Assembly (NCBI GenBank): GCA_001817495.1
Contig: MHIL01000023.1
Coordinates: forward strand, 1 to 57,335
DNA length: 57,335 bases
Source: Candidatus Buchananbacteria bacterium RIFCSPHIGHO2_02_FULL_56_16
GTDB taxonomy: Bacteria > Patescibacteriota > Patescibacteriia > Buchananbacterales > UBA6539
Direction: 5' to 3'
Shown here piece by piece: positions 13,262 through 46,171 of the stretch. Numbering within the stretch: the first letter of the stretch is position 1; each line of letters begins with the position of its first letter. The notes beneath the pieces were generated by a model. It ran no database searches. It saw only the letters and a program-made list of their open reading frames with translations, and was not told the DNA's origin. Made by a program: the position numbers and the translations under genes.

Positions 13262-13292
13262 AAAGCTGCAAGCTTTCCATTACTACTTACAT

Positions 13293-23224: not shown

Positions 23225-26200
23225 ATGATACACCAAGTACACCAAGACAAGCAGCGCGAGGCAAACCGCAGGAGCCGGCCGGTGGCGAGGTTCATCCTGT
23301 CGGGTTGCATGTTGCTGACGCTGGCGCTGGGCTTGGTCGCGCCGGCAATGCTCTACCCGACCCCGGCGGCCGCGGCCGGCATACCGACCTTTGACGCCGC
23401 GAACCTTCGAGCGTGGTTTAGCCAAATCGGCTATAACTTCGCTGAACAAGCTGAACGTCTAGCACAGCAGATCGAGAAGCGGACGGCGGCGATTGCTTTC
23501 AAATCAGCCTTACATTTATTCCTCAACAACCTTGCTTACGATTCGGCGACCTGGCTGGCCGCCGGCGGCAAGGGCCAGACCCCGTACTTTCATACTGATA
23601 GCTGGGGAGCGTACCTGACCAAGGCCGCTGACGGCGCGGCCGGTGATTTTATCAGCAAACTCGGTGAATCGTGGCTTGACGGCTTCAACGTCTGCCAGCC
23701 GGATCTGCCGTTTCGGATTAACGTGGCTCAAGGGTTTCAAGACAATTTTATCCGTCGCCAGCCCGACTGTACCGCCAGCGAACTGGCCCGAGACTGGGAG
23801 CGCTTCGTCCAGCGCGACGACTTTCTTAGCCAGTTCGTCAAGCAATTCAATTCGCAGCAGAACGAGGTTCTCATCGGCTTGACGCTTTGGGACAAGTACT
23901 ATCAAGCCCTCTCGTTTGAAACCAAGACTAAAGAGCAGGATCGAATCGAAGGCCAGGGTTTCCAGCCGGTTACGTCGGCGATATCCGGCAAGATTCTTAC
24001 CCCCGCCAGCCTGACCAAAGCCCAGGCGGATGCCTTGATTAACAATCAGGCCGACGCCGAGAAAATCAGCACCGGCGACATCGTGGCTGACGCCATCAGC
24101 ACGTTTATTAATACCTTAGCCGGCAAGCTGTTTCAGCGGCTGTTCAAGGAAGGACTGGCGAGCCTGCGGGATGATGATGATGCTCGGCGAAGTTTCATTA
24201 GCCGTGATCTCTATACCGGTGAGAGCGGCCGCGACCTGTTCACCGGCCGGCAGGCGGCCGAGGCGCGCTACGTAACGCTGGTTGACGCCGGCATCATTAC
24301 CGGCGGGCCGTACGAACTTTTGCAGCAGCTCGCCACCTGCCGGGATTTGAGCAACCCGGGCCCGGAAGAGTGCGTCATTGACCAAAATTTTCGTTTGGCG
24401 ATTGAGCAAGAGATGACGGTTCGGGAGGCGATTGACGCCGGCTACCTGGACGGCAGCGCGCCGTTCGGCTTTATTTCCCCGGGGGTTGCGCCGCCCTACG
24501 CCGGGGACAAGAAGGGCTACCCCTACCGCAGCCTGCTGATTCTGCGGGCCCACCGGATCATCCCGGTTACTTGGGAGGTGGCCGCTAAAATTATTGATGA
24601 GGGATTTACCGGCAGCGACCGGGTCGTGACGCTGAATGCCTTGATTGCCGAGTATGATAACTCGGACAGCCCCTTCTACCGCCTGATTGACCAATACTGG
24701 GTGCTGAAAGCGCCGGAAGCGTTCTGCAAGGCGGAAGGCTACGGGCCGGTCATCATCAGCGATCAGGTCAGCAACGACGGCCAGCGGATCGTGACGCGCA
24801 GCCAGTACTGCGCCGACTACCAGTCGTGCATTGAGAAAGACAGCAAGGGCAAGTGCATCTACGGCTACTGCACCGAGGAACAGCCAACCTGGAACCTCCA
24901 GGCCGAGAGCTGCCTGCCCGAGTACAGCACCTGCCAGACTTTCGTGAACGGCGGCGGCCAGACGGTTTCCTACCTCCAGAATACCCTTAACTACAACAGC
25001 TGCAGCGCGGACAACGCCGGCTGCCAGTGGTACTGCCAGTCGTACAATGTTCCGAGCGCCACCTGGGCTTGCGTTAATGCCGGCGAGCAGGTGCTGAAAC
25101 CGTGCGCCGCGCCCAGCGGCTGCCCGCTCAACGCCGGCTGCAGCATCGCTGAAGCCGGGACATTCTGCACCGACGCGGTCAGTGGCGCGAACCTGACCAT
25201 CAGCACCGCCTGCAGCCCCAGCACCCAGTGGTGGCAAGCCGATCTCTTCGGAACGGGTGTCGGCGGCTGCCAGGCCGGCGCCAGCTGCACCGTCGAGTAC
25301 CAGGGAGTTCAGTGCGTCCAGACCGGCTGCGAGAGCCGCCAGAACCTGCTGCCCAACCCCGGCTTTGAAACCGCCGCCCCGGCCGGCACCCTGGCCGCGA
25401 AGTGGGGCGGGGATCCGGCCTACTTCGAACGGGTGAGCGGCGGGCAGGAGCGGATCCACCGCGGCCGCAGCAGCGTGCGCTTCTACAATGCCGGCAGTAT
25501 GGCCGGCGTAACGATGCGGTCCGATGAGCTGACCGTACCCCGCGCCGGCGCCTACACCGTGAGCGGCTACGTCTTTGACCGGCTGAATGTCGGGTCAATC
25601 TCGTTCAGCGTTTTGGTAAACGGCGGCGCCGTGGCTGACCCGCCGGTCATGCTGACCCAAACCGCCAAGAATCGCTGGTACCAGGTGAGCTTTGATACGC
25701 CGGCGCTGAACGCGAACGACAGGATCAAGATCGTGGTAATCGTCGCCGGCGAGCAGGTCAGCGGCCTGGCCTGGTTCGACGACTTCAGCCTGACCGAGAG
25801 CTGCCTGGTCAATCCGGTGACCCTGACGCTGGCCGGCGCCATCGCCGAAGATGAGAGCAAGATCCACTTCGACCGCGACGCGAAGCAGTGCAGCGCCGAA
25901 GCTGACGGCTGCTCCCAGTTCTACGCTTCGCCGACCCGGCGGATCAGCAACCTCCTGTTTAGCGTTACCGACCCGAGCTTTGAGCTGTACCAAGACAGTA
26001 CCACCCAGCCCGGGGATCAGGATTTCAAGAACTGGACTGCCGTCAGAGCCGTTGTTAAAGCCAGCAGCGATGCTCACAGCGGCGGAGCCGCGATGCAGCT
26101 GCGAGACGACAGTGGCGGCGCCGAAACCTATGTTTCGCTCACGTTTGATACGGGCGAGCCGCTCAACGAGCGGATGTTCATTGTTTCCTACTACGCGAAA

Positions 26201-29200
26201 ACGGTCAACGCTGATGACTTTCAATGTAACGGCAGCGATGAAAATATAGTCCCGCCAAATCTTCGAGGGGGCTGCCATGAGTGGGACAAGAATTACGCTA
26301 ACTTTGTCCGATCGCCTGACGCCGTCGGCGGCAACATCATGATCAACGGTATCAGTTCAGTTGGGCTCAACGACCAGTGGCAGCGGTTCTCGGCGGTCCT
26401 CGCCATCAACGATCCCGTGTTCGACGCCGCTAAAAAACTGGAAATTATTTTGTACACTATTACTCAAGGTACCGGCTCGATCCTCTACGATGACATCCAG
26501 CTCGAGGAGGTTACCGGCAGCGTCCGGACTGAAGCGGTGCCGTTCCAAGGCTACACCACGCTGACGGAAACCCACCTGCGCAAGGCGCCGGACTACCTTG
26601 GCTGCCAGGGCTTCAGCCTGGAACGGCCCAGCGACTATGTGCTCAACGGCGTGACCGAAGCCAGCTGTATCGGTGACACTCTGGTTTGGCGGCCGGAGAG
26701 CTGCGTTGGCGGCTTCTGCTGCCGCCAGATAGACCCGCCCGAGTGCGCCGGCTACGCCCCGTACTGCCAGGCCGACGAGATCGGCTGCCAGTCGTTTACG
26801 CCGCTCCAGGGCGGGCTGCCCGTTCCCGGTGTCGCCGCTGCCGACGACTACTGCGGCGCTGAATGCGTGGGCTACGACGCGTTCAAGCAGGCGCCGACCT
26901 ACTTTGAGCGGACCCAGTCCATCGAATTCTTCATCCCCAAGACCGCGGAACAGTGCAGCCTGGCCCAGGCCGGCTGCGACGAGTTCACCAACCTCGACGA
27001 GGCAGGGGCCGGCGGCGAAGATCGCGAGTACTACCAGTACCTGCGCCAGTGCACCAAACCCGGCGCGGCCGGGGTGAGCTGCGGCACCTTCTACAGCTGG
27101 CAGGGTTCGGACGACAGCGGCTATCAGCTCTCAACCTACAGTTTAAAGACCGCCGGTGCCAGCCCCAACGAGGTCATCGAGTACAATCCGGCCAGCCCCG
27201 ACGAGGTCGCCTACCCTGACGCCTGGTGCGACAACAAATCCGACGGTGATGGCGACGGTTCACCAGACTGCTGCGACGCCTCTGAAGACTTAACCCAGAA
27301 CCCGTTCTGCCGGGAATTCTTCGACCGCGACGGAGGCGTTCACTACGTCCTGGAACAAAACACGATCACCTGTTCAGATGATTGCCACCCCTACCGAAAG
27401 ACCCGCCTCGGAGAAACCGATGCCGAAGCCCAGGCGAACTGTTCGGCCTCGAACCCGGCCTACACGGGAGCGGCACTGAATCCCGGCTGGCAGGACAACG
27501 CCTGCGTCTACTACGCCATCCCCGATCAGGGTGTCGCCTGCCCGGCCCAAGCCGCGGGCTGCCGCGAGTACCGCGGCAACGCCGGCGGCAACGTCTTCAC
27601 CGCGTTTTACGACAGCTTTGAAGACGGCGACAGCCTCGGCTGGCAGACCGGTCAGATGAGCAGCCTGGCGCTCTCGGTCGGCGGCCACTCGATCAAGAGC
27701 CAGTCGGGCACGCTCCAGACCATGGCCGCCTCGATGGGCGCGGCAACCTGCGACGCTGCCCTGACGGTCTGCGACGGAGCAACGTATCCCTGCTACCAAG
27801 CGGCGACGAACACCTGCCTCGCCCAAGAGCCAACCGGCCAGACCTGCGAGGTCGCGCTTGGGACGACTGATTGCGGCGTGTTTGATGCCGCTTTCGCGAG
27901 CGGCCGTGACTACCTGCTCACCTTCTGGGCCCGGAGCGAATCGGGCAATACGCCGGTTACCATGCAGCTTACCGACAGCGCTGGGGCGACGACAATTGCC
28001 CAAGTCGCGCTGACCGCGAACTGGCAGTACTACACGTTCGGGCCGATCCGCTACGACTGGCCGCGCGGCACCAAGCTGGTTGCCCGGAACGCGAATAGCA
28101 AGGACTTCTTCTTCGACAACGTTACCTTCAAGGAGATTACCGGCTACGTCTACGCCATTAAAAATTCCTGGCAGACGCCAACGAGCTGCGACACCAACCC
28201 GTTCGTCAGCCCGGCGGTGCCCGCGCCGCAGTTTATGCTCGGCTGCCAGCAGTACCGGGATTCCAGTAACCAAATCCACAACCTCAAGTCGTTTTCCAGC
28301 CTCTGCCGCGAAGACGCGGTCGGCTGCGAAGCGCTGCTCGACACCTTTAACTCGGACGACCCGTTCGCGAGTGAGTTTAACACCGCCGACGCCGCCGGCA
28401 CGGTGACGGTACCCCAGGATCGGGTGGTTACCATGGTCAACAGCGCCGAGTTCCGCTGCGACTCGACCCAGGAAGGCTGCCAGCGCCTCGGCCGGCCCAG
28501 CCTCGACCAGAGCGGCGCGGTGGCCGGCTACACCGATGCGTACGTCTTGAACGATCCGGATCAGTACCCAACCACGCTCTGCGGCAGCGGCGAAGTGGGC
28601 TGCGCCGAGTTTCAGACCAACCATGGCTTCTTCTACTTCAAAGCGCCCGGGCTGCAGACCTGCGAGTACCGGCAGATTCCCAACCAGCCGGGCGGCTTTG
28701 GCTGGTTTAAGATCGGTTCCGCCTCGGCCACGCCGGACTGCCCGATTACCCGCTCGCCTTTGGGTATCGTCCACCCGGCGACCGGCTGGACCGGGCTGTG
28801 TCCGGCCGGCGCGGCCAGCTGCACCGAGTTCATTGATCCGGTGAGTAACAATGCGAAGAACTTGATTTTTAACGTGGACTTTAAGCAGGATCTCGACCTT
28901 AACGGCAAACCCGACGGCTGGAGCAGTTTGCTCAGCGCGCTGGAGCAAACGATCACCCTGACGCGCAACACCCTCTACACCGTGGCGATCAGCTCGAACG
29001 GCACCGCGCTGGACAGTTCCGATCTTGAGGTACAGATTACCGGCTGCCCGGGTATCACTTCACCCGACCACTCAATGGTCAGCGCCGGCACGGACGCGCT
29101 CCAGCTGCCGGTCTCCGACTTCAAGGGCGACCGGCTGCGCCGGCCCGACCTGCCGGATGAACGGCAGTACTCGGCCCGGTTCTTCGTGCCGGCGGCGGGC

Positions 29201-32200
29201 GGCGGCACCTGTACGCTGCGGCTCAACCCGGGCGGCGCCTCCTCAATCACCAGCCTCTTGCAGGCGGTGGCCGTACGCGAGAGCGGGGTGGACTACGTGC
29301 TCGCAAGCGACGTTAACAAGACCGGCTGCAACGGCATCGTCAACGAGCTCAACGGCTGCGTCTTGTTTAACGACCGCAGCGGTGTCAACTACAAGATCGG
29401 AGAGACCGACAACTCGTACCTCCGCTTCGACGCCGACATGAGCCGGCCGGGCGTCAACAGCAGCGTGCCGGTGGCAAACTGCGGCGGCGCCTGCGACAGC
29501 AGCACCATTTTGAAGGTTCGTCCGGACCGAACCTGCGGCCAGTGGCTCGACTGCCAGACCAAGGTTAAGTCGGTTGACGCGAGCGGCAACGAGGTTACCT
29601 ACTGCGTCGAGCTCGCGGCTTGCGATGAATTGAACGAGTCCGGCGAGTGCACGAACTTCATCTTATCCGACCGCCAGAAGGTTAACGGCTCGAATGACAA
29701 CACCACGGTTGAGTTCCTTAACCACGATAAAATTGCCTACCTCTCGGGCTACGCCAAAGCCGGTTCAACCCTTGCCGACGCAACGGGTGCGCAGGGGGTG
29801 ATACCCGGCGCGGCGTTTGATGCCGCTAACACCTTCAACGGCTACTACCCGTTCAACCTGATGAGCCAGTTCGGCGAGGTGGCGAAGGTGCCGAACGGCA
29901 GCTTTGAGGACTACCCCGAGGTCGAGTACCCGGTTGGTTGGGCCTGGCAGAACGGCGACGGCCGGCGCTGGGGCAGCCACCTCTTCCGGGTGATCTCGAG
30001 CGTGGTTGAGGCCCAGGACAACGAGGGCATCACGCTGCAGGGCCGGGCGTCGCTTAAGCTGAATGCAGACAACGTCGTCATTTCTGATCCGATTTCAGTT
30101 TTACCCAATACCGACTATACCTTGAGCGCCAGTATTAATACGTTAAACCTTCAGCCGACTGAAGCCGAGGCGATTGTTGATCTGGTTGACGCTTCGGGTA
30201 ACCAGCTCGCCCCGCCCGTCGAGCTCCGGCTCAAAGCGCGGCTGGACTGGACCAGCCTTTCGGTGATCGTTAACCGTACCGCCATTACCGGTACCGAAGT
30301 CAGGGTTCGCCTCCGCAACTTCCATCCCAATACCGCACTGATTGCCGAGTCTTCCTACTTTGATAACATCCAGATGCTGCCTACCCTCGAGGTTCAGGCG
30401 CTGCCGCCGTACACCGGCGAGAAGAATTACGTCAGCCGCTCCTGCCGCGTCTTCCCCCAGCAGGACTCGCTGGCCTGCAGCTACCGCGATACGGCCGGCG
30501 CCATCCAGCAGGGCTGGTCCGGCTACTGTTTGGAGCCAGACCCCCAGCGGTCCGGCGTCTGCCTCCAGTGGTGGCCGGTTGACCTGATCAAGGGCGACGC
30601 CTTCGGCACCTACATTGGCTACAACGGCCGGCTGCCGCTCTACTACTGCATGGAGACGAGCATGTCCACGACGCGGATAGAGTTCCTTAAAGAAGGAGAT
30701 ATGACGATCAGTGGTGACTATAATGACGTAACACCAGAGATTGATAAGAACAATTTGGATAAAGATAAATGTATTACGTATAAGAAGCCAAATGGCGGAA
30801 AACTTGAATTTCCCGATGGGTCGAGCGTTACGTTAACCGGCGGAAATAGATGCGGGTCCGACTGGGTGGTCGGCGTCTGTAAGTATGAGGGAGAAAAAAC
30901 CGCTGATATTGATATTTTTCATAAGAACCTCATTGACCGGATTAGGGTCTTTAGCCTTGCAGATGATGGTGACGTTGCCCACAGCATGGAGGGCTGGCTT
31001 GGTTACTGCTTTAACATGTCCGTGGAGGGTAAGGTCGAGTTTTTTGATGTTGAAGCAACTCCTAAATTTGGAGGTACGGTGCCAGTTACCGCCAGTCCAA
31101 ACCAAACTTGGCTCGCGGCCACTAACGGCAAGGTTTGCTCATACGGGGGTAAAGCAATTTTTGACAAGGAAGGATTACTGGATCAGATGTGGTTTTGGAT
31201 CGCCGATCAATCTAGTAAGTGCACCCATAACTTCGAGTGGCAAATTGGGGTTGATGTTCATCTGAATCGGAACTATTGTACGCTGCTGGCTCAAACCGTG
31301 ACGCCTGTCGGTGAGAACAAAGCCTGGGTGTCACGGGTGGCAGAAGGCAGCTCGTACGACGACCTCGAGTGCACGGTTAATGGCACGAAGCCGCTCTTCT
31401 CGATTAACGGTGCCTGCGCGCCGGGAGTTGACTGCGTGTTCGTCAATAGCGAAAAGACGTACCGTTGCGATACCGATGCGAACTTTGACGGTGTACCGGA
31501 TGGAGCACGCTGCAGCGTCTGCGAGTACAACACCGACTACGCGCCGTTCGGCGCCGCGGTACCCGAGGATCCCTACAATATTACCAACTCGGACAAGCTC
31601 TACTGGCAATTGCCGGACACGGAAAACTTTGAGCCGCCCTACCAGGCGCGTATGGGCCAGGTGCCCTACACCTATGGCACGGCGCCCAGCGCCTACAGCA
31701 CCTACCTCAAGCGCCTGTTCGCCCAGAGCTTCAGCTTCTGGAAATGGCAAGAGATTGGGGATCTGGTTTGCCTAGGCGGAACTAATGACGGAAAGGTCTG
31801 CACTGATAGCAGCCCGCAATGTCCCCAAGGTTCATGCATTGATCGTGGCACCCTTTGTCAAGGTAATACCTCAACGCGAGGGGCGGAGTGCAACGTGGCA
31901 GCGTGTGGTTTTGATAGCGGTGGTGTGAGTATCCCCTGCATAGAAGTTAATGACCTAAGTGAGTGCGAGGGTAGTGCCTGTGATAAAGTTTTCGCTTGTG
32001 ACTTCAACGCTAACGGCAGTTGGGATGTTGGCACAGATAAGCGCTGTTGTCCCGTGTCTGTTGCCGGTGGTCCGGATCCAACTTGTGAACAGAAGTATAG
32101 CTGTTCAGATGATAGTTTGAATGCGGGGCAAGAGTGTACGTTCAATGCTGATGAGTGTCCGGGTGGCACCTGCGCGCAGCAGCGTCAGGGTTTCCAGCCG

Positions 32201-33133
32201 GACTTAAGAGTCACTTGTCCAGCAGGAATTCTCTGCTTGCAGGTCACAGGAACTGATGAGTTCCGCTGCGGCGGCACTTCCGGCGGCGCGCTTTGCAGCC
32301 CTTTCCGCTGGAGTCCGCCTGACCGGTTGTGTGAGACGCTGACTGGTCTGAATGACAATAGCCGGCCGACAACGTTGAATTTCAGTACCGATGCCGACTA
32401 CTGCGCCATCGCGCCGCTGGTTAAAAACATCCTGATTAACGGCCAGAACGGAACCGCTGCGCCGCTCAAAATTATTAACCAGCGCGGTTCCGGCTCGGCG
32501 ACCCTGCTGTTTAACGCGGTGCTTGACGGCAACCAGCTGCCGCTGACCGCCTACCAGGTTGACTGGGGCGATGGCTCCAAGGTGGCGGTGTCCGGCACCA
32601 ACCTGCGCGACCGCTCGAACACCGTGGCGCCTTACAAGCTGACCCACTCCTACAGCTACTACGAAATTTTATCCCAGAATCAGAGCGGCGACCGGATCTA
32701 CTGTTCGGCCGTGCTTGGCGATGTGCCAGCTGGGGTGCTGCCTAAAGGCTTTTGCTCCGGCGGTCCAACGCCCGGCGCCAGCTGCGAGAATTCGACGCAG
32801 TGTTCGCCGGGCGGCGTCTGTAACCTCACTTGGTGCGCGGTCAAGCCGCGGATTCAGATTCAGGACAACTGGGGCTGGTGCAACGGCAGCATTGATCCGG
32901 GCAGCGGCGTGCTCCTGGGGCCGCAGTGGGGCTATCGCGTCGGCAGCGGAGCGCCCAACTGCAGCAGCGACGGCAGCGGCGTCTGTGCCGGAGGTACCGC
33001 GCCCGGTAGTGCATGTACGACGGTAGCGCCGTGCGCTGGCGGCGGGGTCTGCCAGCTCGATAACGCTGACGCCTGGACGACGTTTGGCGGTGCGAGCGCG
33101 AGCGGCTACGTCATTGTCGGGATCAACGATTAG
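23225..33133 (+). CDS. Giant (3302 aa) Cys-rich extracellular protein with an N-terminal signal-anchor; putative adhesin or pilus-tip protein
   Basis: It is a single uninterrupted ORF with genome-typical codon bias. It has an N-terminal TM segment, several jelly-roll/CBM-like domain starts (NLLPNPGFE, VPNGSFEDY), a PKD-like YQVDWGDGS motif, a recurrent GC-x-(E/Q)-(F/Y) motif and C-terminal C-x-GG-x-PG-x-C knots. Confidence 0.85.
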   Translation: MIHQVHQDKQREANRRSRPVARFILSGCMLLTLALGLVAPAMLYPTPAAAAGIPTFDAANLRAWFSQIGYNFAEQAERLAQQIEKRTAAIAFKSALHLFLNNLAYDSATWLAAGGKGQTPYFHTDSWGAYLTKAADGAAGDFISKLGESWLDGFNVCQPDLPFRINVAQGFQDNFIRRQPDCTASELARDWERFVQRDDFLSQFVKQFNSQQNEVLIGLTLWDKYYQALSFETKTKEQDRIEGQGFQPVTSAISGKILTPASLTKAQADALINNQADAEKISTGDIVADAISTFINTLAGKLFQRLFKEGLASLRDDDDARRSFISRDLYTGESGRDLFTGRQAAEARYVTLVDAGIITGGPYELLQQLATCRDLSNPGPEECVIDQNFRLAIEQEMTVREAIDAGYLDGSAPFGFISPGVAPPYAGDKKGYPYRSLLILRAHRIIPVTWEVAAKIIDEGFTGSDRVVTLNALIAEYDNSDSPFYRLIDQYWVLKAPEAFCKAEGYGPVIISDQVSNDGQRIVTRSQYCADYQSCIEKDSKGKCIYGYCTEEQPTWNLQAESCLPEYSTCQTFVNGGGQTVSYLQNTLNYNSCSADNAGCQWYCQSYNVPSATWACVNAGEQVLKPCAAPSGCPLNAGCSIAEAGTFCTDAVSGANLTISTACSPSTQWWQADLFGTGVGGCQAGASCTVEYQGVQCVQTGCESRQNLLPNPGFETAAPAGTLAAKWGGDPAYFERVSGGQERIHRGRSSVRFYNAGSMAGVTMRSDELTVPRAGAYTVSGYVFDRLNVGSISFSVLVNGGAVADPPVMLTQTAKNRWYQVSFDTPALNANDRIKIVVIVAGEQVSGLAWFDDFSLTESCLVNPVTLTLAGAIAEDESKIHFDRDAKQCSAEADGCSQFYASPTRRISNLLFSVTDPSFELYQDSTTQPGDQDFKNWTAVRAVVKASSDAHSGGAAMQLRDDSGGAETYVSLTFDTGEPLNERMFIVSYYAKTVNADDFQCNGSDENIVPPNLRGGCHEWDKNYANFVRSPDAVGGNIMINGISSVGLNDQWQRFSAVLAINDPVFDAAKKLEIILYTITQGTGSILYDDIQLEEVTGSVRTEAVPFQGYTTLTETHLRKAPDYLGCQGFSLERPSDYVLNGVTEASCIGDTLVWRPESCVGGFCCRQIDPPECAGYAPYCQADEIGCQSFTPLQGGLPVPGVAAADDYCGAECVGYDAFKQAPTYFERTQSIEFFIPKTAEQCSLAQAGCDEFTNLDEAGAGGEDREYYQYLRQCTKPGAAGVSCGTFYSWQGSDDSGYQLSTYSLKTAGASPNEVIEYNPASPDEVAYPDAWCDNKSDGDGDGSPDCCDASEDLTQNPFCREFFDRDGGVHYVLEQNTITCSDDCHPYRKTRLGETDAEAQANCSASNPAYTGAALNPGWQDNACVYYAIPDQGVACPAQAAGCREYRGNAGGNVFTAFYDSFEDGDSLGWQTGQMSSLALSVGGHSIKSQSGTLQTMAASMGAATCDAALTVCDGATYPCYQAATNTCLAQEPTGQTCEVALGTTDCGVFDAAFASGRDYLLTFWARSESGNTPVTMQLTDSAGATTIAQVALTANWQYYTFGPIRYDWPRGTKLVARNANSKDFFFDNVTFKEITGYVYAIKNSWQTPTSCDTNPFVSPAVPAPQFMLGCQQYRDSSNQIHNLKSFSSLCREDAVGCEALLDTFNSDDPFASEFNTADAAGTVTVPQDRVVTMVNSAEFRCDSTQEGCQRLGRPSLDQSGAVAGYTDAYVLNDPDQYPTTLCGSGEVGCAEFQTNHGFFYFKAPGLQTCEYRQIPNQPGGFGWFKIGSASATPDCPITRSPLGIVHPATGWTGLCPAGAASCTEFIDPVSNNAKNLIFNVDFKQDLDLNGKPDGWSSLLSALEQTITLTRNTLYTVAISSNGTALDSSDLEVQITGCPGITSPDHSMVSAGTDALQLPVSDFKGDRLRRPDLPDERQYSARFFVPAAGGGTCTLRLNPGGASSITSLLQAVAVRESGVDYVLASDVNKTGCNGIVNELNGCVLFNDRSGVNYKIGETDNSYLRFDADMSRPGVNSSVPVANCGGACDSSTILKVRPDRTCGQWLDCQTKVKSVDASGNEVTYCVELAACDELNESGECTNFILSDRQKVNGSNDNTTVEFLNHDKIAYLSGYAKAGSTLADATGAQGVIPGAAFDAANTFNGYYPFNLMSQFGEVAKVPNGSFEDYPEVEYPVGWAWQNGDGRRWGSHLFRVISSVVEAQDNEGITLQGRASLKLNADNVVISDPISVLPNTDYTLSASINTLNLQPTEAEAIVDLVDASGNQLAPPVELRLKARLDWTSLSVIVNRTAITGTEVRVRLRNFHPNTALIAESSYFDNIQMLPTLEVQALPPYTGEKNYVSRSCRVFPQQDSLACSYRDTAGAIQQGWSGYCLEPDPQRSGVCLQWWPVDLIKGDAFGTYIGYNGRLPLYYCMETSMSTTRIEFLKEGDMTISGDYNDVTPEIDKNNLDKDKCITYKKPNGGKLEFPDGSSVTLTGGNRCGSDWVVGVCKYEGEKTADIDIFHKNLIDRIRVFSLADDGDVAHSMEGWLGYCFNMSVEGKVEFFDVEATPKFGGTVPVTASPNQTWLAATNGKVCSYGGKAIFDKEGLLDQMWFWIADQSSKCTHNFEWQIGVDVHLNRNYCTLLAQTVTPVGENKAWVSRVAEGSSYDDLECTVNGTKPLFSINGACAPGVDCVFVNSEKTYRCDTDANFDGVPDGARCSVCEYNTDYAPFGAAVPEDPYNITNSDKLYWQLPDTENFEPPYQARMGQVPYTYGTAPSAYSTYLKRLFAQSFSFWKWQEIGDLVCLGGTNDGKVCTDSSPQCPQGSCIDRGTLCQGNTSTRGAECNVAACGFDSGGVSIPCIEVNDLSECEGSACDKVFACDFNANGSWDVGTDKRCCPVSVAGGPDPTCEQKYSCSDDSLNAGQECTFNADECPGGTCAQQRQGFQPDLRVTCPAGILCLQVTGTDEFRCGGTSGGALCSPFRWSPPDRLCETLTGLNDNSRPTTLNFSTDADYCAIAPLVKNILINGQNGTAAPLKIINQRGSGSATLLFNAVLDGNQLPLTAYQVDWGDGSKVAVSGTNLRDRSNTVAPYKLTHSYSYYEILSQNQSGDRIYCSAVLGDVPAGVLPKGFCSGGPTPGASCENSTQCSPGGVCNLTWCAVKPRIQIQDNWGWCNGSIDPGSGVLLGPQWGYRVGSGAPNCSSDGSGVCAGGTAPGSACTTVAPCAGGGVCQLDNADAWTTFGGASASGYVIVGIND

Positions 33134-33678: not shown

Positions 33679-36600
33679 ATGAAAACGTGGAGGAACATCC
33701 TGAATCGGCGAACGGTCCTGACGGCGCTGTGTCTTTTCGCGCTTGCCGTTACCGTTTTTACCGTTGCCGTATCCGCGCCACTCGTATTGGCTCAAGAAGA
33801 GCCGCCCCGCCCAACGAGCGACTACGAGCAAGACGATCTTGGGCCGTTAGAGGCCGGGTCCTCCGGCGCTTTCAATACACGGCCAACACCTGTCAAAAAG
33901 GCCGAGGCAGAAGAATCAAATGTCTTTCTCTCAACCTTCGTAAATCTACTGGTCGGAGGATTGGCCAGGATCGTCATCTGGCTCGAGGGGTTTGTCATAA
34001 CTGCTCTGATCGCGATCTTGCTCCTCGTGGTTAAGTATAACAGCTTCGCGACCGCTGGGGCGGTCAGCAACGGCTGGACCTTGGTCCGTGACGTTGCCAA
34101 CCTGTTCTTCGTGGTCGTGCTGCTGGGTATCGCGCTGGCCACGATCCTGCGGGTTGAATCCTACAACTTCAAGAAGCTGCTGCCCAAGCTGATCCTGATG
34201 GCGATTCTGGTCAACTTCAGCAAGGTCATCGCCGGCCTGATCATTGACTTCGCCCAGGTGGTGATGCTCACCTTCGTCGCCGCCTTCGCCGGCGTTTCCG
34301 GCGCCGGCAACATGGTAACTACCCTGCAGATCCAGTCAATTATTACCTACAACTGGTCCAACGCCGCGGAGGCGAGCGCGGCAAACTTCACGGGTACGGC
34401 GCTGCTGATGGCGATCATGCTGCTGATTACCATTGGGGTCCTGCTGGTGATGCTCGTCGTGCTGGTGATGCGCATCGTGATGCTCTGGGTGCTGGTGGTG
34501 CTCTCGCCGCTGGCCTACATCATGGCCGCGTTTCCCCAGGGGCAGCGCTACGCCCAGCAGTGGTGGCAGGAGTTCACCAAGTACGTGATTGTCGGCCCGG
34601 TGCTCGGATTCTTCCTCTGGCTGACCTTCGCCGTCGCCAGCGCCGGGGACATTGCCCAAAAAGAGTTTGGCAGCCAGAAAGGCTTAGCCGCTGCCGGCGC
34701 CGGTGACGCGTTGAGCGCGAAGCTTGCCAAGCAGGCCGGAGTTCAAACGAAAATCGGCCAAACCGACCATCTGCTGTCGTTTATCATCGCCATTGCCATG
34801 CTGATGGGGTCCTTGGTCATTACCCAGCAGATCGGCGTGGCCGGCAGCCAGTTCGCGGGGTCGATGTTTAATAAGATTCGCCAAACCGGGCTCAAGGCGC
34901 TCCTGGCGCCGGGCAGGGCGGTGGGCTGGACCGCGAAGACCGCGGCCAAGGCGCCGTTTCAATTTGTCGGCCGCAAGGTCAATGAGGCAATCGGTGAAGG
35001 CAAATTGCCGGCCTGGGCGAGTCCGGCCGGGATGGTTCGCGGGTGGGGTGCACGGCGGGCAGAATTGTATGATGTATCAAAACGTAAAGCTGCCGCTGCT
35101 GGCCATGAAAAATGGGAACAGCTTTTTACCGGAACATCGTTGCCTCGGGTATCACAAATTGAATTAGCGGAAGAATCTAAGTTCGCTAAAGATTTTGCGG
35201 ACGTATACGATAAAGAACAAATGGCAGCAGAGTGGGTTGGATTAAGGAACGCGCCGCAATCGGCGGAAATTAGGGCTAAAAAAAGAGGCTTGATCAAGGC
35301 TGGCGGCGTAGCGGGTTTTTTGGATGATATAATGGCTCATCCGGAAACGAAAGCACATACTCGCAATTACATCAAGAATTTGTATAAAACGACCAAGGAT
35401 GATCAACTAAAAGCGGCTATGGATGAAAAGGATGAGAAAACCGGCTTAAGTCTAATGGATAATGTAAACGATGATAAGGGTGCATGGTACAACTGGCAAA
35501 CACTCCATTTCTTTTTGCAAGAGTCTCTCGGGAGCGATCAGGCCGGGATGACGACGATGCAAACCCTTGAAGATATTGGCAAAAAAAATGGTCATCCAGA
35601 ATACGGTGGCCATGATACCTATCGATCATCACTCGAAGGCGGCCACGACGAGATGGAAATGGAAAGGATTTATGATCAAAAAGACGCTGCCGGTAAAATT
35701 ATTAGAAAATCTGGTCAAAAACGCATGCAGACTGAACTTTCTAAAATGCAGGGTCGCAGCAGGCTTGGTTTAGCGCCGCATGCATTTATGGCAATGAATA
35801 ATGATGGTACCTACGCTATGGGAATGCCAGAGCGGTTGGCGGCGACAGCTATGTTCGGCGCCCAGGGCGCAAGAATTTTTGAGCACTCTCAAAAGCGAGA
35901 TTGGACCATGGCTATGGGTGGCAGCCCAGATGAAGTGAACTGGGTCGAAGGTCAGGAAACAGAAGTTGCGAATTTTGATAAACCAGATGCATCACTGCGA
36001 AACATAATCAACCACGCCAAAGGTTTTGCTTTTCTTATGCAAAGTGCTGCTAATCCACGAGAGCCAGTCGACGTAATTGTTAAAACGGCGTGGAAAACAA
36101 CTGGTGGAAAAGGTGAGCCCCAGTTTCAGGTTAATGGAAAGGTCTATGGCGCTGATGAATTCTTAAGCGAGTTTGGAGAACAGGCACACGCAACGCCGTC
36201 GCCCGCGCCTACGCCTGGTTCAGCCCCAGCGCCCGGCCCCAGCGCCCCGATGGCTGATATTGACATCGCTAAGCACGAGCGAACCAAGCAGGCGATTGAC
36301 GCCTTTAGCGCTCAAACTGGTTTATCAGCGGCTGATTTTTACCAGTCTCGGTCGTACAAGGCTGATCAGTATACTGCCCAAGGAGATTTTGAGCGTAACG
36401 AGCAGCTGATGGGTGGCTGGCGGCAAGAAATTGGCCGTATCAGGCCGGACGTTGATCAGGCTAACCCCGAGGCGGTCGAGCAGGCGATTCGTGAAGAGCA
36501 GGGTAAAGTTCGGGGTGTGAAGTCGGCTAGCGGCAAAGGTGAAGGTGAGCAGGCCGGCGTTGGGCTTGACTTCTCCGATAAAGACGTCCAGCGCATCTTT

Positions 36601-38430
36601 GGCGTCAATCAGTCACAAGCAGGTGCCTACTACAAACAAGGCGATCTAACCAAGGCACAAAAGACTTTCCTCGGGGATAAATATCATACGCAGTTGTTAA
36701 ATGAAGGGGTTGATGAAAAAACGGCGGTAGAGAGGTGGGCGGCTTTCGACGAGACATTGGACAAGGTTGGTTCCCTCCGGATGACCAATAATAGCGGCTA
36801 TGCCTCACGCCTTGAAACCGGCCGTCATGAACGGGCCCACCCGGAAATTGAGAAGCTTGCTCCAGCCCAGATTGATGAAATCTACAATTCAATTGAGAGC
36901 GACCGCCGACTCCAGATGGAAGCTGAAGTCAAGGCTCGGTGGGGTAACATTAGTCCGCTGGATGCCAAGAAAGAAATTCTGACCCAGGGTTTGGCCAGCT
37001 ACGGCCGTTCAGATGCCCGCGAACCGTTGCAGCTCACTGACGCGGCGGCTCGAGCCATGGCGGCAACCGGTGCCGTTAAGATGAGCAACGCGGCGAAGCA
37101 GCGGCTCGATCAGGCGTACCCTGAGGCTGCCGTGACCAAGGGAGAACTCAAGACGATTGATAAGCAGCGTGCCGCAACGGCCAAAGCCCAGGCGCGTGAC
37201 GCTAAGGCCGCGGCTCAAGCCGAACGCCAAACCGTTAAGGAACGGCAGCGGCAGCTGCAGCAGCGCGAGGCACAAAACGCGCCGGTATACACCCAGGCGA
37301 TCAGCGCTTTGAGTACGCTCAATCCCAGCCAGCTCGGCCAGCTGTGGGGTAAGCTGTCAGCGGCTCAGCAGTCGGCGCTAACGGAGGAGGTACGAGAATC
37401 CTACCCGGCAGCCGCCCGCTCTGTTCCTGTTGGCGATTACAACTTGCAGCTGGCGGCGTTGAGCCGGGCGCTGGCGCGAACGAATCTCGAACCGGCGGCG
37501 AAAGATAGTTTGCATCTCGACGCAACCGTCGTCGAGGCGATAAAGAGCCAGGGAATCGATACGGCATCAGTCGGTACTAAAAATGAGCTTTACCGTCAGG
37601 CGCAGCAAACTCAGGGTACCTACCAGCAGCGCCGCACCGAGTATGAGCAGCTAGCGGCTCGGAAGGCTAACTACGGTGATGCGATGCGGCAGAAACAGGC
37701 GGAAAACAACGCCGAGGTTAAGCAGCGGAATGAAGCGGCCCGCACCGCCGCCAGCCGTGGCGATATGCCAGCCGCCGCAGAGGCAAGAAAGATGGCTGAA
37801 TTCTTACAAAAAGAGAACGCTCGCATTGACCAAGATGTGGCCAAAAAAGGCAAAGAATTTGACGTTGATATTAATAAAGCAAAGTCAAAAATGCAAGCCG
37901 CGTTGGATCAGGTTATGGATTTGGAAACTCGGCGTCGACCCGAACCATCAGTACCGCAAGCCGTCCACCAAGCCTTCTCAACCGTTGCTCACCCGGTCAA
38001 TGAACAAGCCCGCCAGCAGGCGCAGCAGGTTATTGCGCAGGCGCCACCGGCCGAGGTTGTTGCGGCAGCGCAGGAAGCAGTAGATAAAGAAGGTGAAGAG
38101 CTGAAGCGGGCGACAGGCAGTGCTGATAACGGGGCAATCCTTGCGGTATTGACGAGTATTGAGAGTATTTTGGAGGGGGTGAAATCATCACTTGACAAAT
38201 TATCTGGAGACAAGGTTAATAGCGCTGAGCGGTCGCACTTTGATGACCTCATGCGTCAAGTCAGTTTGAGCCGAGGATCGATGGCCGCCGGTGGTCAGCT
38301 CGACCCAGGATCGGTGGCTGGGCTGCTTCGTGATGTCAACAATAATTTAAAGAGCATCTATCGCAAGACTGGTCAAAAAACGGGCAGCATGCCGACGGAA
38401 ATACCACCCAAGACTTCAGGTGAGGAATAA
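33679..38430 (+). CDS. 1583-aa polytopic membrane protein (VirB6/TrbL-like N-terminal region) with a long Ala/Gln/Lys-rich helical C-terminal extension
   Basis: It has a signal peptide and about 6-8 TM segments in aa ~90-400. About 1150 aa of soluble, coiled-coil-like sequence follows. The functional call comes from topology and context only. Confidence 0.45.
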   Translation: MKTWRNILNRRTVLTALCLFALAVTVFTVAVSAPLVLAQEEPPRPTSDYEQDDLGPLEAGSSGAFNTRPTPVKKAEAEESNVFLSTFVNLLVGGLARIVIWLEGFVITALIAILLLVVKYNSFATAGAVSNGWTLVRDVANLFFVVVLLGIALATILRVESYNFKKLLPKLILMAILVNFSKVIAGLIIDFAQVVMLTFVAAFAGVSGAGNMVTTLQIQSIITYNWSNAAEASAANFTGTALLMAIMLLITIGVLLVMLVVLVMRIVMLWVLVVLSPLAYIMAAFPQGQRYAQQWWQEFTKYVIVGPVLGFFLWLTFAVASAGDIAQKEFGSQKGLAAAGAGDALSAKLAKQAGVQTKIGQTDHLLSFIIAIAMLMGSLVITQQIGVAGSQFAGSMFNKIRQTGLKALLAPGRAVGWTAKTAAKAPFQFVGRKVNEAIGEGKLPAWASPAGMVRGWGARRAELYDVSKRKAAAAGHEKWEQLFTGTSLPRVSQIELAEESKFAKDFADVYDKEQMAAEWVGLRNAPQSAEIRAKKRGLIKAGGVAGFLDDIMAHPETKAHTRNYIKNLYKTTKDDQLKAAMDEKDEKTGLSLMDNVNDDKGAWYNWQTLHFFLQESLGSDQAGMTTMQTLEDIGKKNGHPEYGGHDTYRSSLEGGHDEMEMERIYDQKDAAGKIIRKSGQKRMQTELSKMQGRSRLGLAPHAFMAMNNDGTYAMGMPERLAATAMFGAQGARIFEHSQKRDWTMAMGGSPDEVNWVEGQETEVANFDKPDASLRNIINHAKGFAFLMQSAANPREPVDVIVKTAWKTTGGKGEPQFQVNGKVYGADEFLSEFGEQAHATPSPAPTPGSAPAPGPSAPMADIDIAKHERTKQAIDAFSAQTGLSAADFYQSRSYKADQYTAQGDFERNEQLMGGWRQEIGRIRPDVDQANPEAVEQAIREEQGKVRGVKSASGKGEGEQAGVGLDFSDKDVQRIFGVNQSQAGAYYKQGDLTKAQKTFLGDKYHTQLLNEGVDEKTAVERWAAFDETLDKVGSLRMTNNSGYASRLETGRHERAHPEIEKLAPAQIDEIYNSIESDRRLQMEAEVKARWGNISPLDAKKEILTQGLASYGRSDAREPLQLTDAAARAMAATGAVKMSNAAKQRLDQAYPEAAVTKGELKTIDKQRAATAKAQARDAKAAAQAERQTVKERQRQLQQREAQNAPVYTQAISALSTLNPSQLGQLWGKLSAAQQSALTEEVRESYPAAARSVPVGDYNLQLAALSRALARTNLEPAAKDSLHLDATVVEAIKSQGIDTASVGTKNELYRQAQQTQGTYQQRRTEYEQLAARKANYGDAMRQKQAENNAEVKQRNEAARTAASRGDMPAAAEARKMAEFLQKENARIDQDVAKKGKEFDVDINKAKSKMQAALDQVMDLETRRRPEPSVPQAVHQAFSTVAHPVNEQARQQAQQVIAQAPPAEVVAAAQEAVDKEGEELKRATGSADNGAILAVLTSIESILEGVKSSLDKLSGDKVNSAERSHFDDLMRQVSLSRGSMAAGGQLDPGSVAGLLRDVNNNLKSIYRKTGQKTGSMPTEIPPKTSGEE

Positions 38431-38456: not shown

Positions 38457-39707
38457 ATGATTGACAATCGTTTAGAAAAAATAAAAAAAATCACGCCAGA
38501 CCAGTTAGAGACGGCCGATATTTTGGATTTGTTAAAACTTTTAACCAGTGGGTACTTGGACGGTTTTCAAGTTGGCGAAGCCAAGGAACTTTGGTGGGCA
38601 TTAAGTCGGCTGATCACTGGTCTTCAAGCTAAAACCATAAGTCAAAAAACAATGAACCAAGTTAATCGCTTGATGGTTGACTTAGGTTGGTTGGCTTTGC
38701 CTTTTTTACCGGATTCGGCAGTTGAAAATTTATTTAAGGCTGATTTATTAAGAGCCCTTAGCCTTGAAATTGACGTCTTGGCAAAAATAAAAACTTTTTT
38801 TAGTTTTTCTTACGGTAATTTTAATTTACTGGAACAGCAGCGTCGGCTGATGATTAGCGCGCTTAAAATAAATGAAGAATTAATTGGCGATCGGGCAATA
38901 AAAATTTCCGACGTCGGTGAAGAAGTGGCGCCGGCGATTAAAAATTGGTTAAAGGATTATGATCAGTCCAGTAACGTCAATCAGCGCTCAAGGCGCTTAA
39001 ATCTAGTTGAGTATATTAACACTAATAATAATGTTCGTCAGCTGTCAGCTGAGCAAAAGGAAACATTGCGCCGGGTTTTGCAAGTTTATGATTTTGTCCG
39101 ATTTTTAAACCAGCTAGAAAGTGTTAGTGAAACCGGCCACAAAATTCCAGCGGAAAAAGTAACTGTTTTGGACCGAGAGGACCTGGCATCATCACCGGTC
39201 GAAGACGAATCATCTAAAGAGCAGCAAGAAATTTTTCAGGCTTATCAAGGTGATCAAAAACGGGCCAAGGCAATCGACCGCGAGCAGGCAAAGCTGGCCA
39301 AAAAAATCAGCGGCAAGGTTGACCAGCTCCCCGCCATTTTTTACCAGGCGGTTCAGACCAAAAACGTTGCCGCCACCGTCGCCGCGCTGCGGCTGATGGC
39401 CGAAACTGACACGCTGGGAAACTTTTTGCAAACCGATGAGAAGCTCAAGCAATTTTTGAGCCTGACCTGGGAAAAACAGTATGGTAAGGCGACGGCCGAG
39501 GCGTTTAAGCGCAACCCGAATCAGCCGAAGTTCGTCAGGCTATTCTTACAGTACGTTTTGCAGCAGCGGCTGGGTTTGGACAGCAGCGAAGCGGCGCGGC
39601 TGGGGCTGCACATCGGCAATATATTTGTCAAGAGTGGCAAAAAAGAGTATAATAGGCTGGCGTACTTTGACGTGAAGAGCAAGCAGTTTAGGTGGTTTGA
39701 AGGCTAG
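38457..39707 (+). CDS. Hypothetical protein (416 aa), AT-richer than its surroundings
   Basis: It is a long ORF with coherent codon usage and a helical, Lys/Glu-rich sequence. I recognised no motif. Confidence 0.6.
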   Translation: MIDNRLEKIKKITPDQLETADILDLLKLLTSGYLDGFQVGEAKELWWALSRLITGLQAKTISQKTMNQVNRLMVDLGWLALPFLPDSAVENLFKADLLRALSLEIDVLAKIKTFFSFSYGNFNLLEQQRRLMISALKINEELIGDRAIKISDVGEEVAPAIKNWLKDYDQSSNVNQRSRRLNLVEYINTNNNVRQLSAEQKETLRRVLQVYDFVRFLNQLESVSETGHKIPAEKVTVLDREDLASSPVEDESSKEQQEIFQAYQGDQKRAKAIDREQAKLAKKISGKVDQLPAIFYQAVQTKNVAATVAALRLMAETDTLGNFLQTDEKLKQFLSLTWEKQYGKATAEAFKRNPNQPKFVRLFLQYVLQQRLGLDSSEAARLGLHIGNIFVKSGKKEYNRLAYFDVKSKQFRWFEG

Positions 39708-39798: not shown

Positions 39799-40161
39799 AT
39801 GGCGCAAGTTGTGAGTTACCGAGATCTCACCGTTTGGCAGCGGTCAATGGAGCTCGTTGTTGCTATTTATACCTTAACTGACCAGTTGCCCGACGCCGAA
39901 AAATATGGGTTAACTGCTCAAATGAGACGTGCCGCTATTTCAATCCCTTCAAACATAGCCGAAGGGAGACGGCGGAGCAGCCGGAAAGATTTTCGTCAGT
40001 TTCTCATTATCGCATACGGTTCAGGTGCAGAACTCGAAACTCAAATTGAAATTGCCAAGAGATTATCATTTATTCAAGCTGAAAATTCTAAAAAGTCAGA
40101 GCTGCTACTTGGGGAAGTGATGAGAATGCTCAATAAATTGCAATCAATTCTGAAAAGCTAA
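39799..40161 (+). CDS. Four-helix-bundle protein of the 23S rRNA intervening-sequence (IVS) protein family
   Basis: It has the hallmark sequence YRDL.VWQ....L...IY.LT..LP..EKYGL..QMRRAA.SI..NIAEG..R.S.K.F..FL.IA.GS..E..T. Confidence 0.85.
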   Translation: MAQVVSYRDLTVWQRSMELVVAIYTLTDQLPDAEKYGLTAQMRRAAISIPSNIAEGRRRSSRKDFRQFLIIAYGSGAELETQIEIAKRLSFIQAENSKKSELLLGEVMRMLNKLQSILKS

Positions 40162-40254
40162 GAACTACAACCTAATTCCTAACTCCTAACTCCTAACTCC
40201 TAACTCCTAACTCCTAACTCCTAACTCCTAACTCCTAACTCCTAACTCCTAACT
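40160..40254. repeat. Right arm of the inverted repeat, followed by a (TAACTCC)x10 perfect heptamer microsatellite just upstream of metK
   Basis: The arm is aagaactacaacctaattcc. Ten perfect TAACTCC units span 40180-40249, followed by a partial unit. The metK ATG is at 40259. Confidence 0.9.
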
Positions 40255-40258
40255 AAAC

Positions 40259-46158: not shown

Positions 46159-46171
46159 CAGCCAAGTTCTG

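What the first reader, a model, noticed from the sequence alone, without database searches (positions are those of the whole stretch)
30660..32230. AT-rich patches inside the giant gene suggest swapped-in modules
Two stretches, about 30660-31300 and 31750-32230, are visibly AT-richer with different codon choice. They use many AAA/GAT/AAT/TTT codons against the GC3-rich remainder of the same ORF. They encode a Lys/Asp/Asn-rich module and a dense Cys-knot module (CLGGTNDGKVCTDSSPQCPQGSC...). Similar AT-rich patches occur in the pilin C-termini (~11690-12060, ~12480-13150) and in the VirB6-like tail (~35050-36170). Compositional mosaicism restricted to the surface-exposed parts of this gene set suggests recombinational module exchange or recent horizontal acquisition, as in antigenic or host-range variation.
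Basis: seen in the sequence. Interest (0 to 1): 0.6.

Follow-up and report, generated by a model that had tools for sequence, protein, structure and literature searches.

The report
AT-rich variable modules in giant gene
Two sharply bounded AT-rich stretches in a 3302-residue surface protein of a tiny groundwater bacterium are real, and they are exactly the two parts of the protein that differ between related bacteria. This is the familiar pattern of variable, probably imported modules in a conserved scaffold, and I found no donor and no ongoing switching.

Summary
In the 3302-aa ORF at 23225-33133, third-codon-position GC (GC3) is 0.80. It drops to 0.47 at nt 30674-31294 (aa 2484-2690) and to 0.45 at nt 31742-32257 (aa 2840-3011). 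The drop is at synonymous sites and is not explained by amino-acid content (expected 0.78, observed 0.45; z = -11.9).

Three independent assemblies carry the same junctions, so it is not an assembly chimera. The patches coincide, within 17 codons or fewer, with the two slots where collinear homology to about 20 orthologues is lost. Relatives show no comparable dip, including two GC-rich distant ones and one closer GC-rich relative.

The genome is the GC-rich outlier of a low-GC family. About 21% of its codons fall in the same low-GC3 class, including methylases, envelope glycosyltransferases and part of an AlaRS gene. The mosaicism is therefore not restricted to this gene set.

I found no donor, no silent cassettes and no alternative alleles. 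The only homologues of patch 1 are a closer relative and an ORF on a phage-like 45%-GC contig.

Best reading (about 0.5): the modules were last replaced from a lower-GC gene pool. Main rival (about 0.3): recombination-driven GC enrichment skipped these modules. This is a known kind of feature, of moderate interest.

The parts
23225..33133 (+). Giant ORF of 3302 aa: signal-anchored, Cys-rich extracellular protein with no Pfam match. It is the conserved neighbour of the VirB6-like gene.
   Evidence: ORF list. No Pfam family. Orthologues of 2500-3900 aa in 29 of 41 relatives. A VirB6-like gene lies directly downstream in the relatives' loci.
30443..30649 (+). Conserved anchor before patch 1 (aa 2407-2475: SCRxYP...GYC..DP...CLQWWPVD...PLYYC). 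GC3 0.87-0.92, the highest in the gene.
   Evidence: Invariant columns C8...C76 of alignment A1. GC3 windows.
30674..31294 (+). Patch 1 = variable slot 1 (aa 2484-2690). GC3 0.47. Rich in K and D.
   Evidence: composition and edges. (homology to orthologues lost at aa 2484-2680). (only two true homologues in 1.84e9 proteins).
31277..31747 (+). Conserved middle block (aa 2685-2841: NYC..TVTPVGENKAW...PYQAR...LKRLFAQSFSFWKW). GC3 0.79.
   Evidence: 71% aa identity and 71.6% nt identity to relative L036.
31742..32257 (+). Patch 2 = variable slot 2 (aa 2840-3011). GC3 0.45. 11.6% Cys.
   Evidence: Homology lost at aa ~2845-3056. No homologue found.
32309..32974 (+). Conserved C-terminal block (aa 3029-3250), including the PKD-like YQVDWGDG domain. 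GC3 0.73-0.87.
   Evidence: It contains the only confidently modelled stretches of the AF2 model (about aa 3060-3160 and shorter stretches beyond).
11692..12063 (+). Low-GC3 C-terminal part (aa 161-283, GC3 0.50) of T4SS-pilin-like protein 1.
12527..13102 (+). Low-GC3 C-terminal part (aa 170-361, GC3 0.43) of T4SS-pilin-like protein 2. It carries an SLT (VirB1-like) domain.
   Evidence: Relatives match only the pilin domain, aa 14-187.
33679..38430 (+). VirB6/TrbL-like gene (1583 aa). The polytopic core is at high GC3. The tail has low-GC3 segments at 35047-36978 and 37756-38427.
   Evidence: In most relatives homology ends at aa ~420-480, where the low state starts.
38457..39260 (+). Low-GC3 N-terminal two thirds (aa 1-268, GC3 0.37) of the next ORF (38457-39707).

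Best explanation
The two patches are the two lineage-variable extracellular modules (slots) of an otherwise conserved giant Cys-rich surface protein. That protein is genetically coupled to the Patescibacteria type IV secretion-like apparatus.

This organism is the GC-rich outlier of a low-GC family. Its conserved core genes have GC3 near 0.8. A flexible fraction of the genome stays at GC3 near 0.46, which fits a genome of about 45% GC at all three codon positions.

The patches belong to that flexible fraction. Most likely each module was last replaced by recombination with a lower-GC relative or mobile element. The crossovers would lie in or next to the conserved anchor motifs that flank each slot (xenologous module replacement).

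Shown: position, edges, synonymous nature, lineage specificity, and reality of the junctions.

Inferred: the import itself, its direction, and that the modules bind host surfaces.
For: 1. The edges of the compositional steps (aa 2484, ~2691, 2840, ~3012) lie within 17 codons or fewer of the last or first invariant residues of the conserved blocks (C2475, C2685, W~2841, W3029). They also match where BLASTP homology to 16-20 orthologues stops and resumes.
2. The two 5' edges are step-like, and the adjoining anchor has the gene's highest GC3.
3. The effect is regional, not per site. In the high regions GC3 is 0.77 at fully variable sites and 0.83 at conserved sites. Other unconserved stretches (aa 3151-3302, 1921-1980, 1-60) keep GC3 of 0.72-0.93.
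4. Relatives lack the dip. The distant GC-rich orthologues show 0.81 against 0.85 and 0.80 against 0.79. In the closer GC-rich relative L036, at identical amino acids, GC3 is 0.68 against 0.45 in this genome for patch 1, but 0.76 against 0.79 in the middle block. The last 50 residues of patch 1 are still 58% identical to L036 yet switch composition only here (0.48 against 0.80). This fits a crossover inside homologous sequence.
5. Patch codon usage is nearest to the genome's all-low gene class (rmsd 0.30, r 0.59) and unrelated to the core (r 0.04-0.13). That class holds DNA methylases, YfhO/PMT glycosyltransferases and PEP-utilizer paralogues. It is compositionally concordant at 40-46% GC, whereas in the core GC3 runs ahead of GC1 and GC2.
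6. The family gene pool is 31-47% GC.
7. A homologue of the patch 1 core (E 1e-7 against 1.84e9 proteins) is the terminal ORF of a phage/mobile-like contig of 45% GC; that ORF has GC3 0.37.
8. The same layout, a conserved core at high GC3 with a non-homologous tail at low GC3, recurs in the pilin/SLT gene and the VirB6-like gene.
Against: - No donor was found. Patch 1 has only two true homologues, at 36-43% identity, and patch 2 has none.
- Patch 1 of L036 is homologous. Its divergence relative to the middle block (0.48/0.71) lies within the range seen for vertically inherited slots in other pairs (0.45-0.94).
- Slot types among sampled genera follow relatedness.
- The flanks are too diverged from all sampled relatives (71.6% nt identity or less) for ordinary homologous recombination with them.
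- The 3' edges are not resolved as sharp.
- Within the gene, GC3 correlates with conservation even outside the patches (rho 0.47), as a continuous in-situ process would predict.
Confidence: 0.5

Rival explanations
1. In-situ origin. The lineage's GC3 rise is driven by recombination-dependent GC-biased gene conversion, or a similar process that needs homologous partners. Hypervariable modules and strain-specific genes cannot recombine, so they stay at, or decay to, the AT-biased mutational equilibrium. No import is needed.
For: - In the core, GC3 runs ahead of GC1 and GC2, whereas the low class is concordant at 40-46% GC.
- GC3 correlates with conservation along the gene even without the patches (rho 0.47, p 2e-6).
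- The low state covers accessory genes genome-wide.
- In AlaRS the low zone is centred on a lineage-specific insertion.
- No donor was found.
- Patch 1 divergence from L036 is within the vertical range.
- Low-GC relatives would show no contrast under this model, as observed.
Against: - The 5' edges are step-like, and GC3 is highest (0.87-0.92) right next to the heterology, where conversion should be hindered.
- Equally unconserved stretches keep high GC3.
- The GC-rich relatives L029, L032 and L036 show little or no dip in their own slots.
- The conserved C-terminal 50 residues of patch 1 are low only in this genome.
Confidence: 0.3
2. Functional codon choice. AT-ending, rarer codons are selected in these modules to slow translation, for folding, disulfide formation or export.
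For: Patch 2 is 11.6% Cys. A DsbA-like gene lies in the window.
Against: - Other Cys-rich parts of the same protein (aa 500-720) have GC3 of 0.83-0.92.
- Orthologues, including GC-rich ones, show no such dip.
- GC1 and GC2 in patch 1 and its amino-acid make-up shift too.
- The same composition is seen in cytoplasmic accessory genes such as methylases.
Confidence: 0.06
3. Programmed variation: a cassette-type system (silent copies) or a diversity-generating retroelement target, giving within-population switching.
For: The location in variable, probably surface-exposed modules. Duplicated pilin paralogues lie nearby.
Against: - No second copy of either patch at DNA or protein level in the 88%-complete genome, nor among the repeats listed for the window.
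- Three assemblies from different samples are 99.96-99.98% identical over 23-30 kb, with no differences in the patches.
Confidence: 0.03
4. Assembly or binning chimera joining DNA of a lower-GC organism into the gene.
For: The genome is a 39-contig MAG with 1.75% estimated contamination.
Against: - The same junctions and an uninterrupted frame occur in at least five independently assembled contigs or fragments.
- Conserved family motifs flank each patch in the expected order.
- L036 carries the same module order.
Confidence: 0.02

Closest known systems
Mosaic genes made by recombination with diverged donors (e.g. pneumococcal pbp and Neisseria penA mosaics; recalled from general knowledge)
   Same: Sharply bounded intragenic blocks whose composition and divergence differ from the rest of an intact reading frame.
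   Different: No donor lineage and no tree incongruence could be shown here. The blocks are whole variable domains, not segments of a conserved enzyme. The flanks are far too diverged from every sampled relative for ordinary homologous exchange.
AT-rich flexible or laterally acquired genes in bacterial genomes and their amelioration (Lawrence & Ochman 1997; Daubin et al. 2003; recalled)
   Same: The patches share codon usage with the genome's accessory low-GC3 class. Composition at all three codon positions fits a genome of about 45% GC.
   Different: Here the unit is a domain inside a conserved gene rather than a whole gene or island.
GC-biased gene conversion in bacteria (Lassalle et al. 2015; recalled)
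   Same: Core, recombining sequence is GC3-rich. Non-recombining or strain-specific sequence is AT-rich. GC3 runs ahead of GC1 and GC2.
   Different: Not tested. The step-like 5' edges and the GC3 maxima next to the patches are not what a simple conversion gradient predicts.
Conserved scaffold with exchangeable receptor-binding modules (phage tail fibres; multiple VirB2 paralogues in Bartonella and Anaplasma, as discussed in PMC12102498)
   Same: A conserved core with variable distal modules in several genes of one surface apparatus (giant protein, two pilins, VirB6-like tail). One module type is also on a phage-like contig.
   Different: Binding function is not shown. There is no evidence of exchange among the sampled genera.
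Patescibacteria type IV secretion system of monoderm-conjugation type (PMC12102498)
   Same: The window holds VirB4-like (TraG P-loop), PrgI/VirB3, TrbL/VirB6-like, PF18895 pilins and an SLT domain.
   Different: That paper reports no adhesin in Patescibacteria. The giant protein studied here is not part of the described gene set. Its link to the system is conserved adjacency to the VirB6-like gene only.

Membership tests
Recombinational mosaic gene (imported block) | Sharply bounded block with composition unlike the rest of the gene | tested here: met
   Steps 0.85->0.47 at aa 2484 and 0.79->0.44 at aa 2840. z = -11.9.
Recombinational mosaic gene (imported block) | A donor lineage more similar in the block than in the flanks | tested here: not met
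   HMMER against 1.84e9 representatives gave, for patch 1, only P0010 (36%) and P0011/L036 (about 41%). Patch 2 had no hit in the word-index searches, Pfam, PHROGs or PDB sequences. Donors may be unsampled.
Recombinational mosaic gene (imported block) | Tree or identity-rank incongruence between block and flanks | tested here: inconclusive
   The patches are too diverged to place. Slot types follow relatedness among relatives. The AlaRS patch shows only weak rank shifts.
Cassette-type antigenic variation (pilE/pilS, vlsE, msp2-like) | Silent donor copies of the variable segment elsewhere in the genome | tested here: not met
   tblastn and blastn of both patches against the whole assembly found only self. 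The assembly is 88% complete.
Cassette-type antigenic variation (pilE/pilS, vlsE, msp2-like) | Alternative alleles within a population | tested here: not met
   No differences in the patches between three assemblies. Read-level data were unavailable.
Diversity-generating retroelement target | Template repeat nearly identical to the variable region | tested here: not met
   No near-copy in the genome and none among the repeats listed for the window. Reverse transcriptase was not searched.
Patescibacteria T4SS gene set (PMC12102498) | VirB4 ATPase, PrgI/VirB3, VirB6, VirB2-like pilins near one another | tested here: met
   TraG P-loop 2.2e-28 and PrgI 2.4e-9. T4SS_pilin 27.0 bits in one pilin (cutoff 26.6) and 23 bits in the other. 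TrbL 19.5 bits is below the cutoff of 25.9, so VirB6 is a weak call.
gBGC-shaped composition | GC3 tracks local recombination rate, with AT-to-GC fixation bias | not testable with these tools
   It needs population polymorphism.

The most novel reading that the evidence does not exclude
The giant protein is the missing adhesin of the Patescibacteria type IV secretion-like apparatus. Its two AT-rich slots, together with the pilin and VirB6-like tails, are host-specificity cassettes. They are exchanged through a shared low-GC module pool that includes phages of these bacteria: the patch 1 domain also ends an ORF on a phage-like contig. If so, in a GC-shifted lineage, composition alone would pinpoint the host-recognition determinants of an uncultured epibiont.
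Probability: 0.12. Interest if true: 0.7.

Novelty: new member of a known kind. Interest (0 to 1): 0.36.

Why it matters
Patescibacteria depend on host cells. Their type IV secretion-like system is essential for epibiotic growth in the one strain tested, yet no adhesin is known for it (PMC12102498).

Here a shift in GC content acts as a natural stain. It separates the conserved scaffold of a T4SS-linked giant surface protein from its two variable modules to within about ten codons at the two 5' edges. The same happens in the neighbouring pilin and VirB6-like genes. This gives concrete, testable candidates for host-recognition domains.

The genome is also a clean natural case for asking whether AT-rich flexible DNA in bacteria reflects import or exclusion from recombination-driven GC enrichment. 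The phenomenon itself (AT-rich variable or acquired segments) is well known.

Tried and rejected
- **Pfam, PHROGs and PDB sequence searches** of the patches: nothing.
- **Word-index protein searches** (three): only self or nothing.
- **Metagenome scan** with the C-terminal 903 aa: only distant relatives at 24-45% identity over long matches. It missed L036.
- **Phage collections:** a tblastn search of the phage records and a pattern scan of viral contigs with patch 1 gave no match.
- **jackhmmer** on a small local set was polluted by repeat proteins (P0008, P0009, P0012) and was discarded.
- **AlphaFold2** of the C-terminal 903 aa with a 17-sequence alignment: mean pLDDT 46, patches unmodelled. 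No fold search was run.
- **AlaRS-like gene** as an independent test of import: no clear donor. It showed only that its low patch resembles low-GC relatives more than GC-rich ones.
- **Read mapping for strain variation:** I used independent ENA assemblies instead.
- **Rejected explanations:** amino-acid-driven bias and site-level codon selection, assembly chimera, silent cassettes or DGR.
Full report
**1. Observation**

The ORF at 23225-33133 (+) encodes 3302 aa and has no Pfam match.
- Over most of the gene, GC3 in 60-codon windows is 0.80-0.92. It falls to 0.45-0.53 at about nt 30605-31300 and to 0.42-0.48 at about nt 31775-32200.
- A two-state segmentation gives H1-2487 (0.80), L2488-2690 (0.47), H2691-2839 (0.79), L2840-3011 (0.45), H3012-3302 (0.77).
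- Maximum-likelihood step fits place the edges at aa 2484 (nt 30674), ~2691, 2840 (nt 31742) and ~3012. At the two 5' edges, ramps of 10-20 codons or more are rejected. The two 3' edges are unresolved.
- When codons are redrawn from the gene's own usage, the lowest 170-codon window is 0.67 +/- 0.018. The observed value is 0.45 (z = -11.9).
Patch 1 has K 7.8% and D 9.2%. Patch 2 has 11.6% Cys.

**2. The dip is synonymous and regional**
- With flank codon usage, the patch amino acids would give GC3 0.78. The observed value is 0.45, and 17 of 18 amino acids use fewer G/C-ending codons.
- In the high regions, GC3 is 0.77 at sites that vary in all orthologues and 0.83 at conserved sites. Site-level selection on conserved residues therefore does not explain it.
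- Several stretches as unconserved as the patches keep GC3 of 0.72-0.93: aa 3151-3302, 1921-1980 and 1-60.

**3. What the patches are**
- The genome (1.06 Mb, 39 contigs, 55.5% GC) is a Patescibacteria MAG. The window carries PF18895 pilins, PrgI, a VirB4-like ATPase, a weak TrbL/VirB6 match, an SLT domain and a DsbA-like gene.
- Orthologues of the giant gene (2500-3900 aa) occur in 29 of 41 relatives. In the loci fetched, a VirB6-like gene lies directly downstream in nearly all of them.
- BLASTP against these orthologues is collinear from aa 1 to about 2480. Homology is lost at 2484-2680, regained at 2680-2845, lost at 2845-3056 and regained at 3056-3250.
- In the alignment of the C-terminal 903 aa, the invariant residues bracketing the gaps are C2475 and C2685, then W~2841 and W3029. 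All four compositional edges therefore lie within 17 codons of the edges of conserved blocks.
- The slots vary in length among relatives: 77-379 aa for slot 1 and 14-530 aa for slot 2.
- So the patches are the two variable modules of a conserved scaffold.

**4. Lineage specificity**
- The giant-gene and AlaRS loci fetched from same-family relatives have 31-47% GC. This genome is the GC-rich outlier.
- In the relatives, slot GC3 differs from flank GC3 by at most about 0.1. In the two distant GC-rich orthologues it is 0.81 against 0.85 and 0.80 against 0.79.
- A 1005-bp metagenome contig, L036 (57.5% GC), encodes a closer relative. It has 71% aa and 71.6% nt identity in the middle block and 48% aa identity in patch 1.
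- At identical amino acids, GC3 is 0.79 here against 0.76 in L036 in the middle block. In patch 1 it is 0.45 here against 0.68 in L036.
- The last 50 residues of patch 1 are 58% identical to L036, yet GC3 is 0.48 here against 0.80 there.

**5. Not an artefact, and no ongoing switching**
- The 90% cluster of the protein has seven members from several assemblies. Every member that reaches the patches has the same patch sequence.
- Two ENA contigs from other samples are 99.96-99.98% identical to the window over 23-30 kb. None of the 17 differences lies in a patch.
- Neither patch has a second copy in the genome.

**6. Genome context**
- About 21% of all codons are in the low state, and 6% of 100-codon windows have GC3 of 0.50 or less.
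- Whole genes in the low class include DNA methylases, YfhO and PMT glycosyltransferases and PEP-utilizer paralogues.
- Patch codon usage is nearest to this class (rmsd 0.30) and unrelated to the core (r 0.04-0.13).
- Core genes are out of compositional equilibrium: GC3 implies 66% genome GC, but GC1 and GC2 imply 54-56%. The low class is concordant at 40-46%. Patch 1 implies 38-47% across the three positions.
- A housekeeping AlaRS-like gene also has a low-GC3 zone, centred on a lineage-specific insertion. The claim that the mosaicism is restricted to this gene set is therefore wrong.
- The layout of a conserved core with a non-homologous low-GC3 tail does recur in the pilin/SLT gene, and largely in the VirB6-like gene.

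**7. Homologues of the modules**
- Full HMMER of patch 1 against 1.84 billion representative proteins gave two true hits: P0011 (which is L036) and P0010. The other three hits (P0008, P0009, P0012) are repeat proteins that I judged spurious.
- P0010 is a 157-aa ORF at the end of a 13-kb contig of 45% GC. That contig has primase/helicase, VRR-NUC and many small ORFs, so it looks like a phage or mobile element. The ORF has GC3 of 0.37.
- Patch 2 has no detectable homologue.
- Among the sampled genera, slot modules fall into types that follow relatedness. No slot pair is more similar than its scaffold.

**8. Mechanism**
- Best reading (about 0.5): each module was last replaced from a lower-GC gene pool, with crossovers in or near the anchors. 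This explains several things together:
  - the step-like 5' edges next to GC3 maxima;
  - the switch in a still-conserved segment in this genome only;
  - the equilibrium-like 45% GC composition of patch 1;
  - the likeness to the accessory class;
  - the absence of dips in GC-rich relatives.
- Main rival (about 0.3): the lineage's GC3 rise depends on homologous recombination, and modules without partners were left behind. This is favoured by several points:
  - the GC3-conservation correlation outside the patches (rho 0.47);
  - GC3 running ahead of GC1 and GC2;
  - the lack of any donor;
  - patch 1 divergence from L036 lying within the vertical range.
- Codon choice for folding, programmed variation and chimerism are each unlikely.

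**9. Comparison and novelty**
- The pattern belongs to known kinds: mosaic genes, AT-rich flexible DNA, and conserved scaffolds with variable distal modules.
- Membership in the "imported mosaic" class is not proven, because the donor and tree-incongruence criteria were not met.
- The Patescibacteria T4SS paper reports no adhesin for the system (PMC12102498). The giant protein's conserved adjacency to the VirB6-like gene makes it a candidate, and the patches its most likely specificity determinants. That step is inference.
- Verdict: a real, well-delimited feature, interesting mainly as a pointer to variable host-interaction modules. It is a new member of a known kind.

Noticed in passing
G000 contig C27:4540-15474 (outside the window), and 4000-6900-aa frames in relatives: The T4SS-pilin-like domain of the window's pilins also matches inside a second giant ORF of this genome (3644-3649 aa, uniformly high GC3, no patches). 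It also matches giant frames in at least seven relatives. Giant proteins carrying a VirB2-like pilin domain therefore look like a family trait.
   Followed up: no
G000 contig C26:39336-41231 (L049): An AlaRS-like housekeeping gene has a low-GC3 zone (aa 274-469, GC3 0.42-0.49). The zone is centred on a 36-aa insertion (aa 385-420, GC3 0.25) that only two relatives (G009, G018) also span in a single alignment; most relatives' matches break across aa ~385-420.
   Followed up: partly
G000 contig C35:14285-21886: A 2533-aa repeat-rich protein (TINATTTNVGTL-type repeats) carries six separate low-GC3 patches. It is a second strongly mosaic large gene.
   Followed up: no
L035:1-474 (JGI 3300009285, contig Ga0103680_10003886): A 157-aa ORF at the end of a phage/mobile-like 13-kb contig (primase/helicase, VRR-NUC, radical SAM) is homologous to the core of patch 1. 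Its conserved motif is IFD..G.LDQ.WFW.ADQSS.
   Followed up: partly
L036:1-1005 (JGI 3300025323): The closest relative of the giant gene found is a 1-kb contig with a frameshift (three stop codons) between the N part of patch 1 and the rest. This is either a sequencing error or a pseudogene.
   Followed up: no
whole genome G000: In core genes GC3 implies about 66% genome GC, but GC1 and GC2 imply 54-56%. All sampled family relatives have 31-47% GC. The lineage therefore seems to be in the middle of, or held in, a GC3-specific rise.
   Followed up: partly
window 11436-11683 and 12238-12485: The two adjacent pilin genes share a 248-nt repeat at 77% identity (their pilin domains), followed by unrelated low-GC3 C-termini. 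The second carries an SLT lytic transglycosylase domain, so it is a pilin-VirB1 fusion.
   Followed up: partly
window 40144-40275, 3229-3315, 13193-13287, 46169-46225, 53767-53850: Arrays of 7-base repeats (CTAACTC, AGTAGTC and similar) fill many intergenic spacers, often as inverted pairs. Earlier notes of this scan already cover them.
   Followed up: no
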